A stretch of DNA of 64,000 nt from an uncultured delta proteobacterium (lineage in GTDB: Bacteria > Myxococcota_A > Polyangia > Haliangiales > Haliangiaceae). The notes under the pieces were generated by a model that saw nothing but the letters and a program-made list of their open reading frames with translations, was not told where the DNA came from and did not search any database. Shown here piece after piece: positions 30,983 through 38,315 of the stretch. Each line of letters opens with the position of its first letter. Positions within the stretch are counted from its first letter, which is position 1. A program made the position numbers and the translations under genes. The stretch spans positions 576,001 through 640,000 of the forward strand of contig CAWKDB010000002.1 in NCBI GenBank assembly GCA_963848295.1, read 5' to 3'.

Positions 30983-32884
30983 ATGAGCCGACTAAGCGCG
31001 CGCCAGCACGAGACCCTCGTGGCCGTGGCTGAGGCCGCGCTTCCCGCCGGACGGATCTTGCCGGCGGCCGGCGAAGCGACAGTCGACAAGGTCGAGCGCT
31101 TCCTCGATCACCTGCCGAGCATGCTCGCGCACGGGCTCGGCGGCTTGCTCGCCGGGCTCGACGCCGCGGCGTGGCTCCATGGCTCGCGATCATTCGCGCG
31201 GGCGTCGGCGGATAAACGGCTGCGGATCTTGGAGAGCTGGCGCACCGGCGACGCGGTGCGTCGACTGGCGCTGCGCGCGGTGGTCAGCCCGCTCAAGATC
31301 TCGCACTTCGACAGCCCGGACCTTTATCGCCAGCTCGGTTGCGTCTACGACACGAGCATCAAGGCCGAGGCGAAGCCTGCCTACATGCGCGAGCGCGTCC
31401 ATCGCGGTGATCAGCTCGGCGGCGACCTCGCGGTCGAGTGCGATGTCGTCGTGATCGGGACCGGCGCGGGTGGCGCGGTGGTCGGGCGCGAGCTCGCCGA
31501 GGCGGGCCTCGCCGTGGTGTTCGTCGAGGAGGGTCACTACTTCGACCGCTCGCACTTCACCGGTCGCTCGTTCGACATGCAGCAACGGCTGTATCGCCGC
31601 GGCGGTTCGACGTTCTCCATCGGCAACGTCGCGATTCCGATCCCGATCGGCCAGAGCGTGGGCGGCACGACGACGGTGAACTCCGGCACCTGTTACCGCA
31701 CACCCGAGCGCGTTCTCGAACATTGGCGCACCGAGCTCGGGCTCGACGAGCTCGGCGCCGCCGCGATGGCGCCGTACTTCGATCGCGTCGAAGCCGTGCT
31801 CGGCGTCGAACCGGCGAAGCGCGAGCTGCTCGGCGGCAACGGCCGCGTGATCGCGCGCGGTTGTCGCGAGCTGGGATTCACGAAGCACGGGCCGCTGCGC
31901 CGCAACGCGCCCGCGTGCGACGGCCAAGGCGTGTGCTGCTTCGGCTGCCCGACCGACGCGAAGCGGTCGACGAACGTGTCGTACATCCCGCTCGCGTTGC
32001 GCGCCGGCGCGGAGCTGTTCACCGGCGCGAAGATGACGCGCGTGATCGTCGAGGGTGGCCAGGCGCGCGGCATCGTCGCGCACACGCCGGAGGGCGCGAC
32101 CCTGACGGTCCGCGCGCGCTCGGTGGTGATCGCCTGCGGCACGTTGCTGACGCCGCTCGTGCTCGGCGCACAGCACCTGGGCAACGCGAGCGGCCAGCTC
32201 GGCAAGAACCTCTCGATCCATCCGGCGGCCGGCGCGCTCGCCGAGTTCGACGAACAGATCCTGCCGTGGAACGGCATCCCGCAGGGCTACGCGATCGAAG
32301 ACCTGCACGACGAGGGCATCCTGTTCGAAGGCGCGATGGTGCCGCTCGAGCTGTCGATGAGCATGACCCAGCTGATCGGCCCCGAGCTCGTGCGACTCGC
32401 CGAGAGCTTCGATCACGTCGCGAGCTTCGGCTTCATGGTCTCGGACACGTCCCGCGGTCAGGTCACCGAGCTGATGGGCCAGCCGGTGATCCGCTACTGG
32501 CTGGGCGATGCGGACATCGCCCACATCAAGCGCGCGCTCGACGTGCTCGCCCAGATCTTCTTTGCGGCCGGCGCGCGTCGCGTCCACTTCCCGATCGCCG
32601 GCTTCGACGTCATGAGCTCCCCCGCCGACCTCGCGGCGCTGCGCCGCTCGAAGGTCAACGCCTGGGATCTGGACCTCTCGGCGTATCACCCGCTCGGCAC
32701 CGCGCGGATGGGGCGCGATCCGGGGAGCTCGGTCGTCGATGGCGACCACCAAGTGCACGATACCCGCGGGCTGTATGTCGTCGATGGCTCGGCGGTGCCG
32801 TCCGCGCTCGGTGTCAACCCGCAGGTCACGATCATGGCGCTCGCGACGCGCGCCGCCGAGAAGATCGCGGCTCACCTCGGCTGA
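30983..32884 (+). CDS. GMC-family FAD oxidoreductase
   Basis: VIGTGAGG, GGTTTVN, YHPLGTARMG, VVDGS, GVNPQVTI. Confidence 0.92.
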   Translation: MSRLSARQHETLVAVAEAALPAGRILPAAGEATVDKVERFLDHLPSMLAHGLGGLLAGLDAAAWLHGSRSFARASADKRLRILESWRTGDAVRRLALRAVVSPLKISHFDSPDLYRQLGCVYDTSIKAEAKPAYMRERVHRGDQLGGDLAVECDVVVIGTGAGGAVVGRELAEAGLAVVFVEEGHYFDRSHFTGRSFDMQQRLYRRGGSTFSIGNVAIPIPIGQSVGGTTTVNSGTCYRTPERVLEHWRTELGLDELGAAAMAPYFDRVEAVLGVEPAKRELLGGNGRVIARGCRELGFTKHGPLRRNAPACDGQGVCCFGCPTDAKRSTNVSYIPLALRAGAELFTGAKMTRVIVEGGQARGIVAHTPEGATLTVRARSVVIACGTLLTPLVLGAQHLGNASGQLGKNLSIHPAAGALAEFDEQILPWNGIPQGYAIEDLHDEGILFEGAMVPLELSMSMTQLIGPELVRLAESFDHVASFGFMVSDTSRGQVTELMGQPVIRYWLGDADIAHIKRALDVLAQIFFAAGARRVHFPIAGFDVMSSPADLAALRRSKVNAWDLDLSAYHPLGTARMGRDPGSSVVDGDHQVHDTRGLYVVDGSAVPSALGVNPQVTIMALATRAAEKIAAHLG

Positions 32885-32885
32885 G

Positions 32886-32946
32886 TCACGGATTTCTGAG
32901 AGGCGCGCTCGGGTTTCCGCGCGGTTGCGCCGGCACGGCTCGTGCT
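32886..32946 (+). promoter_or_regulatory. Upstream box plus sigma54-type promoter, copy 1
   Basis: TCACGGATTTCTGAGAG at 32886; GGCACGGCTCGTGC at 32932-32945. Confidence 0.65.
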
Positions 32947-32958
32947 GTGCACCAGGCC

Positions 32959-33501
32959 GTGCGCACCCTCGCCCTCGCCGTCGTCGCGTCCCTCGCAACC
33001 ACCGCCGGCGCGAGCCCGTTCACCGTGGGTGTCGCGGGCGGGTGGACGCAAAGCGCGAGTGACTCGAGCTCGGCCCCGAACGACGATTGGCAGCTGTGGG
33101 CCCGGCTCCATGTCTGGCGCGCCCTGTCGACCCAGCTCGAGTGGCACAAGCTAGACAACGACAACGCGGTCGCGATGGGCACGGTCAACGCGATCGCGAT
33201 CCTCGACCTGATGCACGGCCAGTGGGTCCCGTTCGTGCTCGCCGGCGTCGGCGTCGATTACGGAGAGAACACGAGCGCGGCGGGCAATGGCGCGGACGTC
33301 GCGGCCGGCGTCGGGTTCGAGTACCGCAGCCCGGGCGGCGTCGTCGTCGGGATCGATGCGCGGATCGGCACGCGCGCGGTCAGCCAACCGGAATACGCTA
33401 CCCCGATATGCAACTTCTGCGCGTTCCAGGCGCCGCCCGACCTCGCGCTGGCCAACGGTGAATACCGCGCGGTCCGGCTCGCGGTCGGGCTTCACTTCTA
33501 G
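32959..33501 (+). CDS. Small outer-membrane beta-barrel protein, paralog 1
   Basis: Signal peptide ending AGA|SPF; PFVLAGVG, AGVGFEYR; terminal LHF. Confidence 0.8.
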   Translation: MRTLALAVVASLATTAGASPFTVGVAGGWTQSASDSSSAPNDDWQLWARLHVWRALSTQLEWHKLDNDNAVAMGTVNAIAILDLMHGQWVPFVLAGVGVDYGENTSAAGNGADVAAGVGFEYRSPGGVVVGIDARIGTRAVSQPEYATPICNFCAFQAPPDLALANGEYRAVRLAVGLHF

Positions 33502-33527
33502 TCAGCGGTCGTTCGCACGTCTAGCGC

Positions 33528-33588
33528 TCACGGATTTCTGAGAGCGCGCGACCCGATCCCCGCGGCTTACGCCGGCACGAGTCGTGCT
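33528..33588 (+). promoter_or_regulatory. Upstream box plus sigma54-type promoter, copy 2
   Basis: TCACGGATTTCTGAGAG at 33528; GGCACGAGTCGTGC at 33574-33587. Confidence 0.65.
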
Positions 33589-33600
33589 GAGTGCGACTCC

Positions 33601-34149
33601 ATGATCGGGACAAGACTCCTCGCTTCGACGGTCGCTGCGGTGTCCGCCGTCTCGGCGGTCGCCACCGCGAGCCCTTTCTCCGCCGGCGCCAGCATCGGCC
33701 GCGCGCAGAGCGCTGATGACTCCGACAACACCGACCCGAACACGACGTGGGGCCTGTGGGGTCGGATGCGCGTGGCCGGGCTCTTGTCGACTCAGGTCGA
33801 GCTCTACAAATACGACAACGTCGACGGTGCGGCGATGGGCACGTTGAACGGCGTCGCGATCGTCGACTTGAGACGGCACGGGCACTTGATTCCGATCGCG
33901 CTCGCCGGGGTCGGCGTCGACTGGACCAACGGCGACCAGAGCGGGTTCGACGTCGCGGCCGGCGTCGGGCTCGAATATCGGGCCGATGGCGGGTTCATCG
34001 TCGGGCTCGACGCGCGGCTCGGCACGCGCTCGGTGTCGTCGCCGGATGAGCCGACCGGCTGTAACGAGTGTCTGTACGCCGTCGCGCCAACCGACTTCCG
34101 CGGCGGCGAGTACCGCGCGGTCCGCCTCGCGGTCGGCGTGCATTTCTGA
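33601..34149 (+). CDS. Small outer-membrane beta-barrel protein, paralog 2
   Basis: Homologous to 32959-33501 (SPF.., GEYRAVRLAVG.HF). Confidence 0.82.
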   Translation: MIGTRLLASTVAAVSAVSAVATASPFSAGASIGRAQSADDSDNTDPNTTWGLWGRMRVAGLLSTQVELYKYDNVDGAAMGTLNGVAIVDLRRHGHLIPIALAGVGVDWTNGDQSGFDVAAGVGLEYRADGGFIVGLDARLGTRSVSSPDEPTGCNECLYAVAPTDFRGGEYRAVRLAVGVHF

Positions 34150-34259
34150 TCCGGCGCGCATGTCAGCGCTTTCGCGTCGGCCACGGTAACGGCAACGGCG
34201 TCGGCTCCGGCGCGTTTGAGTCCGGTAAAGGGTGCCGGAATCATCGTCGGCGGGCGCGC

Positions 34260-34580
34260 TCACCGCGTGAGCCGGAACAGCATCGCGCGCACGCGATCGA
34301 GCGGCGCCTCGATCGCGGCGAAGTCGTCGGCGGAGATGTAGCCGCGCGCCTTCGCGATGAGCAGCGCCGCGGACAGCTCGCGCGCGCTGCCGAAGGCGCG
34401 GCGGAACATGTCGGGCCGGTCGAGCCCCGCGCGCGCGCTCGCCTCGGCGATGTTGAGAGCCACGCTCTCGGCGGCGCGGCCGATCTCGTCGGCGAGCGAC
34501 TTCCGGCGCGAGCGCAGTTTCGGCTCGACCGGGGCGAGCTGTTCGAGGACGGTGAGCGACTGGGCGAGGACGTCGAGCAT
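34260..34580 (-). CDS. Four helix bundle protein (TIGR02436 / 23S rRNA IVP / Avd-like), copy A
   Basis: [30 protein letters not shown]; 106 aa; GAAAGG RBS. Confidence 0.88.
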
Positions 34581-34609
34581 GGCGTGGCCTTTCGTGGATG
34601 AGCGGACGC

Positions 34610-34794
34610 CCGATTCGCCGGGGCCGTCTCGCCCGTCGCGCCGCACTCGCGCCGGCGCCGTGACGAGCGCGGGCACCCAACACCGCACACCCCGTCGATC
34701 CAACTCTGCGGCGGTGCTTCGCATGCGTCGGTAGTCCCGGCGCTCGGCGCGGCGCTGGCGCGAAGCGGCGCAGGGCGACGGCCCCGGCGATCGG
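34610..34794 (-). ncRNA. Conserved rod-like hairpin (candidate structured RNA), copy A
   Basis: CCGAT..ATCGG-bounded 185-nt imperfect hairpin homologous to 35247-35441, with compensatory stem changes. Confidence 0.7.
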
Positions 34795-34817
34795 AAGCCG
34801 CGAGGCGCGAAAGGTGG

Positions 34818-35219
34818 CGGCGTCGGCCTCGGCCTCGGCCTCGGCATCGGCCTCGGCGACGGCTGCGGCTCCGGCTGCGGCGTCGGCTGCGGCTCCGGCT
34901 TCCGCACCGGCTTCGGCTGCGGCGTCGGCTGCGGCTCCGGCTTCCGCACCGGCTGCGGCTGCGGCTTCGGCTGCGGCTCCGGCTTCCGCACCGGCTTCGG
35001 CTGCGGCTTCGGCTGCGGCTCCGGCTTCCGCACCGGCTTCGGCGTCGGCTGCGGCTCCGGCTTCCGCACCGGCTGCGGCTGCGGCTTCGGCTGCGGCTCC
35101 GGCTTCCGCACCGGCTGCGGCTGCGGCTTCGGCTGCGGCTCCGGCTTCCGCACCGGCTGCGGCTGCGGCTTCGGCTTCGGCTCCGGCTTCCGCACCGGCT
35201 TCGGCTTCGGCGTCGGCTT
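34818..35219 (+). repeat. CGGCNN hexamer tandem array with 42-bp higher-order unit
   Basis: CGCACC marker at 34903, 34945, 34987, 35029, 35065, 35107, 35149, 35191. Confidence 0.95.
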
Positions 35220-35246
35220 TAGACCCTCGATCCTCCTTCGCTCTCG

Positions 35247-35441
35247 CCGATGGGCGGAACGTCTCTCTCGCCCTGCGCCGCTTCGCGCTTGTCCCGCGCC
35301 GAGCGCCGAGTGCGCCGGCGCCTGCGATCGATCGCCGCGGAGTTGATCGGCCGGCGATTGCGGTGGTCAGCGCCCGCGCTCGTCACGGGACCCGCGCGAG
35401 TGCGGCGCGACGGGCGAGAGAGAGACGTTCCTACCCATCGG
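35247..35441 (+). ncRNA. Conserved rod-like hairpin (candidate structured RNA), copy B
   Basis: CCGAT..ATCGG-bounded 195-nt hairpin; outer stem GGAACGTCTCTCTC/GAGAGAGACGTTCC. Confidence 0.7.
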
Positions 35442-35463
35442 CCACTCACTTCGGAGGATCTTC

Positions 35464-35787
35464 ATGTCGTTCTACGCCCTCGACTTCGCCCTCGCCGTCC
35501 TGCACCAGCTCGCCCCGATCGAGGCCAAGGTCCGCCGCGCGCGCAAGTCACTCGCCGACGAGATCGTCCGCGCCGGCGAGAGCGTCGCGCTCAACCTCAG
35601 CGAGGGCCGCATGCGTGTCGGGCTCGATCGCCCCGACTTCTATCGCCGCGCCGCCGGCAGCGCGAGCGAGCTCACGACGGCGCTGCTCATCGCCCAGGCG
35701 CGCGGCATCATCTCCGCCGAGGACTTCGCCGCGGTCGACGAGCCGCTCGATCACGTCCGCGCGATCCTCTGGCGCCTCACCCACTAG
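35464..35787 (+). CDS. Four helix bundle protein, copy B
   Basis: LADEIVRAGESVALNLSEG..YRRAAGSASEL; GGAGG RBS; 68 of 106 residues identical to copy A by manual count. Confidence 0.9.
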   Translation: MSFYALDFALAVLHQLAPIEAKVRRARKSLADEIVRAGESVALNLSEGRMRVGLDRPDFYRRAAGSASELTTALLIAQARGIISAEDFAAVDEPLDHVRAILWRLTH

Positions 35788-35942
35788 CGTTCGCGCCGGC
35801 CACACTGACTTGGCACCTGTCGCGCGAAGCAAACGACAGCCCGAAGAGCGGTGCACGGCGTAAGCGGGGTGTCAGCACCAGAAGGCCGCGCTGTCTACAG
35901 GATCGCGACGTATGGGTCAGCGATGTCTTGAGCACTTCCGAA

Positions 35943-36224
35943 GCGGTTGCGGCTTCGGCTTCGGCGGCGGCGACGGCTTCGGCCACGGCTACGGCTTCGG
36001 CGGCGGCGGCGACGGCTTCGGCCACGGCTACGGCCACGGCTTCGGCCTCGGCTTCGGCCACGGCTTCGGCTTCGGCGGCGGCGGCGACGGCTTCGGCCAC
36101 GGCTACGGCTTCGGCCACGGCTTCGGCTACGGCTTCGGCTGCGGCTACGGCTTCGGCTTCGGCTTCGGCTGCGGCTTCGGCTTCGGCGACCGCGACGGCT
36201 TGCGGCTTCGGCGACGGCTTCGGC
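35943..36224 (+). repeat. Second CGGCNN hexamer array
   Basis: CGGCTT/CGGCCA/CGGCTA/CGGCGA units, same orientation as the first array. Confidence 0.93.
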
Positions 36225-36233
36225 AGAGTCGGG

Positions 36234-37808
<1,575 letters not shown>

Positions 37809-37877
37809 CCCAAGCCAAATTCTCGCAGAACCATCGGTGATTCGCACCTATGTTTCGAGGTTTTAAGCGGCATCCGG

Positions 37878-38315
37878 TCAGCACTTCGCGAGCAGGATCA
37901 CGAGCAACAGGATCGCGATGGCGCCCGATACCGCTGGGACTACCCAGACCGGGCGCGCGCGCTCGATCGGCGGTGGCGGCAGCCCGGCGATCGCGTCGTC
38001 ATCGCCGACAAACAGCCGGACTCGTGGCCCGCCGGGTCCGAACTCGACCTTGACCGGCACGTTGTGCGCGACTGCCGATTCGGTGATCCGTGTGCCCTCG
38101 ACGTACGTGCCGTTGGAGCTGCCGAGATCGACGAGCACCCAGCCCGACTCGAGCGCTCGCAGCTCGGCGTGACGCGAGCTCGCGTCGATGTCGCGGTGGG
38201 GATCGAACGACACTTCGCAGTCCGGATGGCGGCCAAATCGGACGCGCTCCCCCTCGCCGAACTCCTGACGTTGTCCGCGCCGGCTTCCCGCAACGTGGTC
38301 GATGACGACCCGCAC
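37878..38315 (-). CDS. FHA domain protein with C-terminal TM helix
   Basis: FGRHP, SSRHA, DLGSSNGTYV. Confidence 0.9.
   Translation of the reverse strand: MRVVIDHVAGSRRGQRQEFGEGERVRFGRHPDCEVSFDPHRDIDASSRHAELRALESGWVLVDLGSSNGTYVEGTRITESAVAHNVPVKVEFGPGGPRVRLFVGDDDAIAGLPPPPIERARPVWVVPAVSGAIAILLLVILLAKC

What the first reader, a model, noticed from the sequence alone, without database searches (positions are those of the whole stretch)
34260..35787. Candidate new system: covarying 190-nt rod-like hairpin paired with a four-helix-bundle (Avd-like) gene, in two divergent copies
Seen: each gene has a hairpin ending 29 nt (A) or 22 nt (B) before its ATG, bounded by CCGAT..ATCGG. The outer stems differ in sequence yet pair perfectly (A: CGCCGGGGCCGTC/GACGGCCCCGGCG; B: GGAACGTCTCTCTC/GAGAGAGACGTTCC), each with a GA bulge. 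The core is identical (TCGCCCTGCGCCGCTTCGCGC / GCGCGAGTGCGGCGCGACGGGCGA; CGAGCGC/GCGCTCG). An inner stem covaries (GCGCCG/CGGCGC versus GTCCCG/CGGGAC) and the apex keeps CGCCGC.GAGTTG(G)ATCG. G-U pairs mostly favour the gene-sense strand. Known: this fold includes the DGR accessory protein Avd, which binds structured RNA, and 23S rRNA intervening-sequence proteins. No reverse transcriptase or rRNA is in this window. Inference: a selected RNA or ssDNA structure plus its cognate binding protein, forming a small spreading module or autoregulatory RNP. I do not recognise it as a described family.
Basis: partly seen in the sequence, partly recalled or inferred. Interest (0 to 1): 0.88.

Follow-up and report, generated by a model that had tools for sequence, protein, structure and literature searches.

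The report
Hairpin-led gene modules with swappable cargo
A long folded DNA or RNA hairpin spreads through the genomes of one group of soil myxobacteria, and where it has a passenger gene (a four-helix-bundle protein here, one of two DNA-cutting enzymes elsewhere) it points at it, so it looks like the handle of an undescribed mobile element rather than one protein's partner RNA.

Summary
The hairpins and genes are real. The locus is one of 10 back-to-back A+B copies in this genome; all 24 hairpin copies sit before a four-helix-bundle (PF05635) gene or its remnant. The stem covaries strongly, the genes are under purifying selection (dN/dS 0.12-0.16), and two tested sites are empty in most relatives. 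The hairpin is not specific to this protein. Of 77 motif matches in 29 relatives, 33 face a four-helix-bundle gene, 27 a DUF222-HNH nuclease and 6 a GxxExxY nuclease. All 24 hairpins beside HNH genes face the gene, from either end, and two genomes carry hairpins with no PF05635 gene found. Across the family G-U pairs do not favour the gene strand. Best reading: the hairpin is the polar end of a mobile module, probably read as folded single-stranded DNA, with exchangeable cargo; DUF222-HNH is the best candidate mobiliser (unproven; this genome's two HNH genes lack the hairpin). It fails tests for rRNA intervening sequences, DGRs, integron cassettes and REP/IS ends.

The parts
33601..34149 (+). 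Left host gene, outer-membrane beta-barrel (PF13505); not part of the element, ends just outside it
34178..34213 (+). Short left (CGGNNN)n tract
34214..34259 (-). Conserved 3' tail of unit A (small stem), shared by the other A copies
34260..34580 (-). Four-helix-bundle gene A, 106 aa, PF05635/TIGR02436; 93-98% identical to 8 other full A copies
34588..34593 (-). Purine-rich ribosome-binding-site-like motif before gene A
   Evidence: sequence
34610..34794 (-). Hairpin A (185 nt): outer stem, GA bulge, GCGC stem, covarying stem, conserved CGC/TCA loop, 7-bp core at 34746-34740 with 34670-34664, about 70-nt apex
34818..35219 (+). Central (CGGNNN)n tract shared by the two units; about 96-372 bp and different in make-up in each copy
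35247..35441 (+). Hairpin B (195 nt), same architecture; core at 35300-35306 with 35376-35382, invariant TCA at 35383-35385
35453..35458 (+). Shine-Dalgarno-like GGAGGA before gene B
   Evidence: sequence
35464..35787 (+). Four-helix-bundle gene B, 107 aa, about 67% identical to A; 92-98% identical to 9 other B copies
35788..35940 (+). 3' segment of unit B, present at full or partial length in several B copies and absent from others (ragged far end); not found elsewhere in the genome
35944..36226 (+). Right (CGGNNN)n tract, running to the stop codon of the convergent host gene
36234..37847 (-). Right host gene, Ser/Thr protein kinase (PF00069), convergent; not part of the element

Best explanation
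The ~190-nt hairpin is the polar, cis-acting end of a small selfish module of this myxobacterial genus; the window holds two such modules back to back (A and B) that have spread as a pair. SHOWN: many dispersed intergenic copies, empty sites in relatives, a fixed hairpin end and a ragged far end, no target duplication found, purifying selection on the cargo, shuffling of polymorphisms among copies, and the same hairpin facing three unrelated cargo genes (about 0.85 that it is a mobile module). INFERRED: the hairpin is recognised as a folded single strand, more likely DNA than gene-strand RNA (about 0.55). A nuclease nicks at or near it, and copying runs from the hairpin into the cargo and stops at variable points. 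Copies land in gaps between genes, often behind a stop codon, where the hexamer tracts then change by slippage. The best candidate for the nicking enzyme is the DUF222-HNH protein, whose genes are bounded by one or two inward-facing hairpins in 7 genomes (about 0.3). The four-helix-bundle protein is a selected passenger, probably an Avd-like binder of single-stranded nucleic acid that helps its own copy spread.
For: 10 A+B pairs, 1 more distant pair, 1 solo unit and 1 remnant in different gene contexts. Flanks lie <200 bp apart in 21 of 28 relatives at one site, and the 7 larger gaps hold no cassette. At a second site they lie <100 bp apart in 10 of 13. dN/dS is 0.12 (A) and 0.16 (B) over 9 copies; 55-58% of informative site pairs are four-gamete incompatible. 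Motif census: 33 four-helix-bundle, 27 HNH and 6 GxxExxY of 77 matches; reversed-pattern control 1. 24 of 24 hairpins near HNH genes face the gene, 14 from the 5' and 10 from the 3' side. Hairpin clades follow cargo (7 switches vs 26 shuffled), with one 86%-identical pair across cargos. The stem is almost pure Watson-Crick: 1 one-sided change in 774 cells, G.T 49 vs A.C 52 on the gene strand, against 7.8% G-U in this genome's tRNA stems. The opposite strand folds better in 50 of 53 (DNA) and 38 of 53 (RNA) hairpins, and the conserved C.A mismatch is a G.T wobble there, the kind of asymmetry described for ssDNA attC sites (PMC5027507, passages).
Against: No movement, nicking or binding was observed. 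This genome has 24 hairpins but only 2 full-length DUF222-HNH genes found, and neither has the hairpin. Copy numbers do not track each other: G004 has 44 HNH matches and only 2 overlapping, chance-like motif matches. Only 4 of the first 28 HNH loci carried the hairpin; the 15 of 20 in the second batch came from loci I picked afterwards, 12 of them from one genome. Hairpin-to-HNH distances vary from 340 to 1689 nt. The energy difference between strands may partly reflect base composition. No exact insertion junction could be read, because the nearest relatives are only about 80% identical. A and B trees are not congruent, so movement as a pair rests on the constant layout alone.
Confidence: 0.45

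Rival explanations
1. RNA processing or insulator signal. The hairpin works in read-through transcripts from host genes: it is cut (RNase III-like) or stalls transcription, giving promoterless cargo genes their own mRNA and shielding neighbours, by the same logic as rRNA intervening sequences. Spread happens by another route.
For: The outer side of the hairpin follows a co-directional host stop codon in 16 of 19 HNH cases and 20 of 28 callable four-helix-bundle cases (7 more not callable). 6 of 11 pairs here lie between convergent genes, vs about 21% of gene pairs. In short-type hairpins the stem runs over the ribosome-binding site and ATG. The protein family is known from RNase III-excised IVSs (PMC4990558, passages).
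Against: No G-U excess on the gene strand and a better fold on the opposite strand. Invariant bases suggest sequence-specific reading. It does not explain dispersal or the fixed 68-76 nt apex.
Confidence: 0.2
2. One reading: a leader RNA bound by its cognate four-helix-bundle protein, forming an autoregulatory or spreading RNP.
For: 24 of 24 hairpins here precede the gene or its remnant. The fold matches Avd, which binds the RT and the template RNA (PMC8632793, passages). The gene is under purifying selection.
Against: 44 of 77 motif matches in relatives do not face such a gene. G005 (95% complete) and G003 (91%) have hairpins but no PF05635 match. A 64%-identical protein (L007) has no hairpin, only inverted hexamer arms. 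At the 3' side of HNH genes the hairpin cannot be a leader of that gene.
Confidence: 0.15
3. The hairpin is a shared landing site. It spreads with the four-helix-bundle or GxxExxY gene, and DUF222-HNH elements insert downstream of it in either orientation, often displacing the first cargo.
For: A four-helix-bundle gene lies directly upstream of an HNH gene in L071 (with hairpin) and L236. Spacing is variable. Targeting of stem-loops is seen in this genome, where group II introns sit right after the end of another cassette family.
Against: HNH-linked hairpins form their own multi-copy clades in G023, G003, G043 and G005, and hairpins from the two sides of HNH genes group together, which fits co-amplification better than independent landing.
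Confidence: 0.15
4. Retro-mobilisation: the transcript is copied in trans by a resident reverse transcriptase with the Avd-like protein as helper, and the tracts are slippage tails.
For: Avd-like fold. Three group II intron-type RTs in the genome.
Against: No DGR-type RT found. The fixed end is 5' and the ragged end 3', the reverse of usual retrocopies (general knowledge). Tracts lie on both sides. The apex motif is not a template that could give the two variable tract positions.
Confidence: 0.05

Closest known systems
ORF-bearing 23S rRNA intervening sequences (Coxiella, Leptospira; S23p = PF05635; PMC4990558, passages read)
   Same: Same protein family; long stem beside the ORF; short tandem repeats next to it (heptamers in Coxiella); selfish, patchy.
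   Different: Not in rRNA; the ORF follows the hairpin instead of sitting in its loop; multi-copy and intergenic; the ORF is under purifying selection, not decaying; the hairpin also serves nuclease genes.
Integron gene cassettes with attC sites (PMC5027507, passages read)
   Same: One long imperfect hairpin per small ORF; conserved unpaired bases; variable terminal part; one strand more stable through G.T wobbles and purine-rich mismatches; exchangeable cargo.
   Different: No RYYYAAC/GTTRRRY cores (0 of 23), no integron integrase over cut-off in 5 genomes, hairpin upstream of the ORF, dispersed singles and inverted pairs rather than arrays.
REP/REPIN/BIME elements with RAYT (Y1 HUH) transposases (recalled)
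   Same: Intergenic, biased to gaps behind stop codons, inverted doublets, folded single strand as likely substrate, mobilised in trans.
   Different: Five to ten times longer, carries genes, and none of 6 Y1 loci scanned carries this hairpin.
DUF222-HNH repeat elements (REP13E12 family of mycobacteria; family properties recalled, search listing only)
   Same: Multi-copy DUF222/HNH ORF with no recognised transposase; found in 25 of 29 relatives searched.
   Different: In this genus a subset is bounded by the inward-facing hairpin; I found no report of such an end. The window's own element carries no HNH gene.
DGR accessory protein Avd (4dwl, 8ub7; PMC8632793, passages read)
   Same: Same four-helix fold (TM 0.81-0.86, 10-11% identity); basic, arginine-rich sequence.
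   Different: No DGR RT found in the genome, none beside the element, and no target gene; the closest structures are the S23-family proteins 2rld and 2gsc.

Membership tests
PF05635 / TIGR02436 four helix bundle protein | Profile score above curated cut-off | tested here: met
   51.5 and 45.2 bits vs 33.8; 47.7 and 45.6 vs 24
[quoted passage not shown]
   pLDDT 95.5, four helices; top hits 2rld and 2gsc, TM about 0.8
PF05635 / TIGR02436 four helix bundle protein | Homopentameric ring | not tested
   Stated for the Xanthomonas protein in PMC4990558; no complex job run
23S rRNA intervening sequence | Inserted in a 23S rRNA helix | tested here: not met
   All 11 pairs lie between protein genes; no rRNA match in 34100-36300
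23S rRNA intervening sequence | ORF enclosed in the loop of the stem | tested here: not met
   The ORF starts 22-29 nt after the hairpin; outer tracts are direct, not inverted
23S rRNA intervening sequence | Excised by RNase III | not testable with these tools
   No RNA data
Diversity-generating retroelement | DGR reverse transcriptase beside avd | tested here: not met
   3 RTs over cut-off, all read as group II intron type from sequence and intron ends, none beside these cassettes; genome 85% complete
Diversity-generating retroelement | Template and variable repeats differing at adenines | not tested
   No dedicated search; no such pair seen in the repeat scan of 32000-38000
Integron cassette (attC) | RYYYAAC and GTTRRRY core boxes | tested here: not met
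   0 of 23 hairpins
Integron cassette (attC) | Integron integrase in the genome | tested here: not met
   0 of 5 genomes over the TIGR02249 cut-off
Integron cassette (attC) | Strand-asymmetric fold with conserved unpaired bases | tested here: met
   Opposite strand more stable in 50 of 53 (DNA parameters); bulged bases 299 vs 78 on the two arms; C.T in 49 and C.A in 37 of 53 at fixed places
REP/REPIN with RAYT | The repeat flanks a Y1 transposase gene | tested here: not met
   9 Y1 genes found; no model hit in 6 Y1 loci; none of the 23 genome-wide hits lies at a Y1 gene; apex-motif scan gave no Y1-upstream site among 2367
Classical IS or MITE | Terminal inverted repeats and target-site duplication | tested here: inconclusive
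   No consistent direct repeat at the outer ends of 11 pairs; ends blurred by tracts; no near-identical empty site available
Described Rfam RNA family | Score at gathering threshold | tested here: not met
   Best 25 bits vs 197 needed, E 0.068
DUF222-HNH (REP13E12-like) element | Encodes the DUF222-HNH protein | tested here: not met
   Window element encodes only PF05635 proteins. HNH neighbours in relatives: DUF222 over cut-off in 1 of 4 and HNH over cut-off in 1 of 4 tested; Atlas neighbours HNH/DUF222 at 0.98

The most novel reading that the evidence does not exclude
The hairpin is a structure-specific single-stranded recognition site that defines a new class of transposase-free mobile cassettes. 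DUF222-HNH (and in some lineages GxxExxY) nucleases act on it to copy whatever lies on its inner side, from either end. Three very common families of unexplained bacterial genes (four-helix bundle, GxxExxY, DUF222-HNH) would then spread by one shared mechanism, with the Avd-like protein as the single-strand chaperone from which DGR Avd and rRNA-IVS ORFs were recruited.
Probability: 0.25. Interest if true: 0.92.

Novelty: new variant of a known kind. Interest (0 to 1): 0.74.

Why it matters
PF05635, GxxExxY and DUF222-HNH genes are common, often multi-copy, and have no accepted means of spreading. One conserved, polar, covarying hairpin now ties all three together in one genus and gives a defined 190-nt substrate, with invariant unpaired bases to mutate, for binding, nicking and mobility assays. 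If the hairpin is read by shape on single-stranded DNA it would be another natural system of that type beside integron attC sites, with possible use as a gene-delivery handle. It also bears on the hexamer-repeat load and rearrangements of these genomes.

Tried and rejected
Rfam: no family. Viral contigs: no relative of protein B. RNA-model searches over class, order and five handles gave no answer, so range rests on an exact pattern that misses diverged forms such as the similar leaders seen by eye in G037. Y1/RAYT as mobiliser: a likeness between the apex motif and the region upstream of Y1 genes, seen by eye, vanished in a weight-matrix scan. Telomerase-like or adenine-mutagenic synthesis of the tracts from the apex motif: the motif lacks the two adjacent adenines this would need, and no suitable RT was found. 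Target duplication: none consistent. Empty site at the window itself: the flanking genes were not syntenic in the listed matches of 60 relatives. Sequencing runs: no RNA holder listed; four DNA runs gave only short contig pieces and no informative joint. AlphaFold model of a DUF222-HNH protein (pLDDT 73, pTM 0.42): no PDB match at E <= 0.001. GxxExxY: not found in this genome. The B-downstream segment matched nothing outside B copies. No complex prediction was run. One search returned no count (parsing slip) and was repeated.

Full report
Observation. The stretch holds two divergent 106-107 aa genes (34580-34260 on -, 35464-35787 on +), each preceded by a long hairpin (34610-34794, 35247-35441), with a 400-bp (CGGNNN)n tract between them and shorter tracts outside. 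The hairpins fold far better than shuffles (z -8.6 and -7.4). The proteins are PF05635/TIGR02436; the model of B matches 2rld, 2gsc and, more weakly by E-value, Avd. Rfam has no match.

It is a dispersed element. The genome holds 10 A+B pairs in the same layout (one with A truncated), one more distant divergent pair, one solo unit and one deleted remnant. A covariance model finds 23 hairpins (150 candidates scored) and an unfiltered profile search 24 at E < 1e-10; all precede a four-helix-bundle gene or its remnant. All 11 pairs are intergenic, 6 of them between convergent genes against about 21% of gene pairs in a crude count. Of 55 tracts of 60 bp or more, 26 lie at these cassettes. Over 9 intact pairs dN/dS is 0.12 for A and 0.16 for B; A and B distances are uncorrelated and 55-58% of informative site pairs are four-gamete incompatible, so copies exchange sequence.

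Empty sites. At the C10:4855k copy, 28 of 60 relatives had both flanking genes on one contig among the listed rows (an unpublished genome and G074 left out). In 21 the gap is under 200 bp against 2080 bp here, and the 7 larger gaps contain no gene, hairpin or tract of this kind. At the C11:698k pair, 10 of 13 relatives have under 100 bp; the other three gaps (360-740 bp) were not read. I found no consistent target duplication; the far ends of B units vary in length, while the hairpin end is fixed.

The structure is selected. In a 31-sequence alignment, 9 of 18 core pairs show changes on both sides; those rows were picked by a motif, so invariant columns are partly by construction. In 44 distinct model matches from a pattern scan of GTDB genomes, 98% of 774 cells pair, 10 pairs covary and two pattern-free pairs change on both sides in 22 and 24 of 43 sequences; no shuffle or slid control comes close. 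That set includes 4 antisense echoes and some DNA also in the training set. Model-positive records are Kofleriaceae or unclassified deltaproteobacterial MAGs, bar one short contig labelled otherwise. In a phylum draw the exact motif gave 7 matches in one same-genus genome and 8 scattered matches in 7 of 198 genomes of other families, control 2. The apex between the core arms is 68-76 nt (pattern allowed 64-80; 44 of 64 at 70-72) or 37-39 nt in a short type, with a CCGCCGCA-like motif at a near-fixed offset.

Which strand. In 53 non-redundant hairpins of 93 (a few mis-anchored rows kept), G.T and A.C mismatches outside the core are equal on the gene strand (49 vs 52), together under 4% of pairs, against 7.8% G-U in 64 tRNAs of this genome. 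The fixed core mismatches are C.T (49 of 53) and C.A (37; most of the rest T-A), which on the opposite strand are G.A and G.T. The opposite strand folds better in 38 (RNA) and 50 (DNA) of 53. For the two window hairpins alone the gene strand has slightly more G-U and lower RNA energy. The family pattern resembles that reported for attC ssDNA sites (PMC5027507, passages), but attC cores and integron integrase are missing.

The hairpin changes cargo. Among hairpins found without reference to the protein, one led a GxxExxY gene (TIGR04256, PF13366) and 7 of 12 other gene-less ones lay within 1.2 kb of a DUF222-HNH ORF. A census of 29 relatives (unpublished G010 left out) gave 77 matches in 19 genomes: 33 face a four-helix-bundle gene, 27 a DUF222-HNH gene, 6 a GxxExxY gene, 7 nothing recognised (3 look like chance), 3 a contig end, 1 unchecked. 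From the HNH side, 4 of the first 28 loci (the tool's best hits, query locus and one unpublished locus left out) and 15 of 20 loci I chose afterwards carry the hairpin. All 24 hairpins, from 7 genomes, point at the HNH gene, 14 from the 5' and 10 from the 3' side, and 4 loci have both. In G023 closely related HNH copies keep the hairpin at opposite ends, with remnants at the other end in two. G015 has three convergent GxxExxY pairs, with hairpins found at both ends in two. G005 and G003 have hairpins and HNH genes but no PF05635 match. On a tree of 81 hairpins cargo changes 7 times against 26 for shuffled labels; kin share labels, so this shows co-amplification, not co-evolution, and one FHB/HNH pair is 86% identical.

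Against the HNH reading: the two full-length DUF222-HNH genes found here lack the hairpin, G004 has 44 HNH matches and no clear hairpin, and spacing is loose (340-1689 nt). The outer side of the hairpin usually follows a host stop codon (16 of 19 and 20 of 28), which also fits an RNA-processing role, though no hairpin was seen co-directional behind an HNH gene.

Reading. I take the hairpin as the polar end of a mobile module with exchangeable selfish cargo, read most likely as folded ssDNA, with DUF222-HNH the best candidate nuclease and the four-helix-bundle protein a selected helper or passenger. Dispersal, polarity, covariation and cargo exchange are shown; strand, enzyme and chemistry are inferred.

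Literature and earlier notes. Ten searches found no description of this element or of a hairpin shared by these genes. The library lacks most subscription papers and I opened no supplements (those of preprints are closed), so large RNA-motif catalogues could hold it. I read passages, not whole texts, of PMC4990558, PMC8700078, PMC8632793, PMC4692102 and PMC5027507; all other papers were seen as listings only. REP/RAYT, IS4 ends and REP13E12 properties are recalled. The scan noted another copy in this genome (e1-3910770) and similar cassettes in other genomes; a word search for the HNH link returned nothing.

Verdict. Interest 0.74.

Noticed in passing
G000 C2:270980-271540, C2:797050-797610, C10:3467450-3467990 and fragments at C10:2647k, 3176k, 4056k, 4408k, 2117k, C2:437k, C11:722k: A second four-helix-bundle cassette family with 15-17 bp terminal inverted repeats (resembling IS4 ends, recalled), inner hexamer arms and apparent 10-12 bp duplications containing CTAG. 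Group II introns sit directly after its end in at least three copies. Some fragments may be assembly chimeras.
   Followed up: partly
G000 C8:9470-9870: A third four-helix-bundle gene enclosed by short inverted hexamer arms.
   Followed up: no
G000, 9 loci, e.g. C10:3445500-3446600, C2:1374300-1375150: Y1 (PF01797) transposase-like genes, most preceded by a conserved folded region of about 250 nt that also occurs at several other places; a piece of it lies behind the DUF222-HNH gene at C10:2181k.
   Followed up: partly
G000 C10:1111600-1112750 (L080): Six tandem copies of an about 185-bp unit between the solo cassette and a tRNA-like gene, each carrying a piece like the tRNA end.
   Followed up: no
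window 32947-34149: Two tandem paralogous outer-membrane beta-barrel genes left of the element.
   Followed up: no
G000, 29 sites: (CGGNNN)n tracts of 60 bp or more with no cassette within 2.5 kb; whether coding, targets or remnants was not examined.
   Followed up: no
L007 (G021:C539): A protein 64% identical to B with no hairpin, enclosed instead by long inverted hexamer arms: the same gene lineage uses both layouts.
   Followed up: partly
L265-L276 (G023): DUF222-HNH genes have a TTGACA promoter-like site and end in repeated GTCCCATGGGAC-type palindromes; hairpins show tandem copies and exact deletions of the core between GCGC repeats; L276 has a host gene end duplicated into the hairpin apex.
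   Followed up: partly
L318-L320 (G015): GxxExxY genes after the hairpin carry long repeat-expanded N-terminal extensions, and occur as convergent pairs of two distinct subtypes, like the A/B pairing.
   Followed up: partly
L215-L217 (G053), L061, L064, L219, L060, L036: Pairs of unlike units recur in relatives, both divergent (long-type with short-type hairpin) and convergent.
   Followed up: partly
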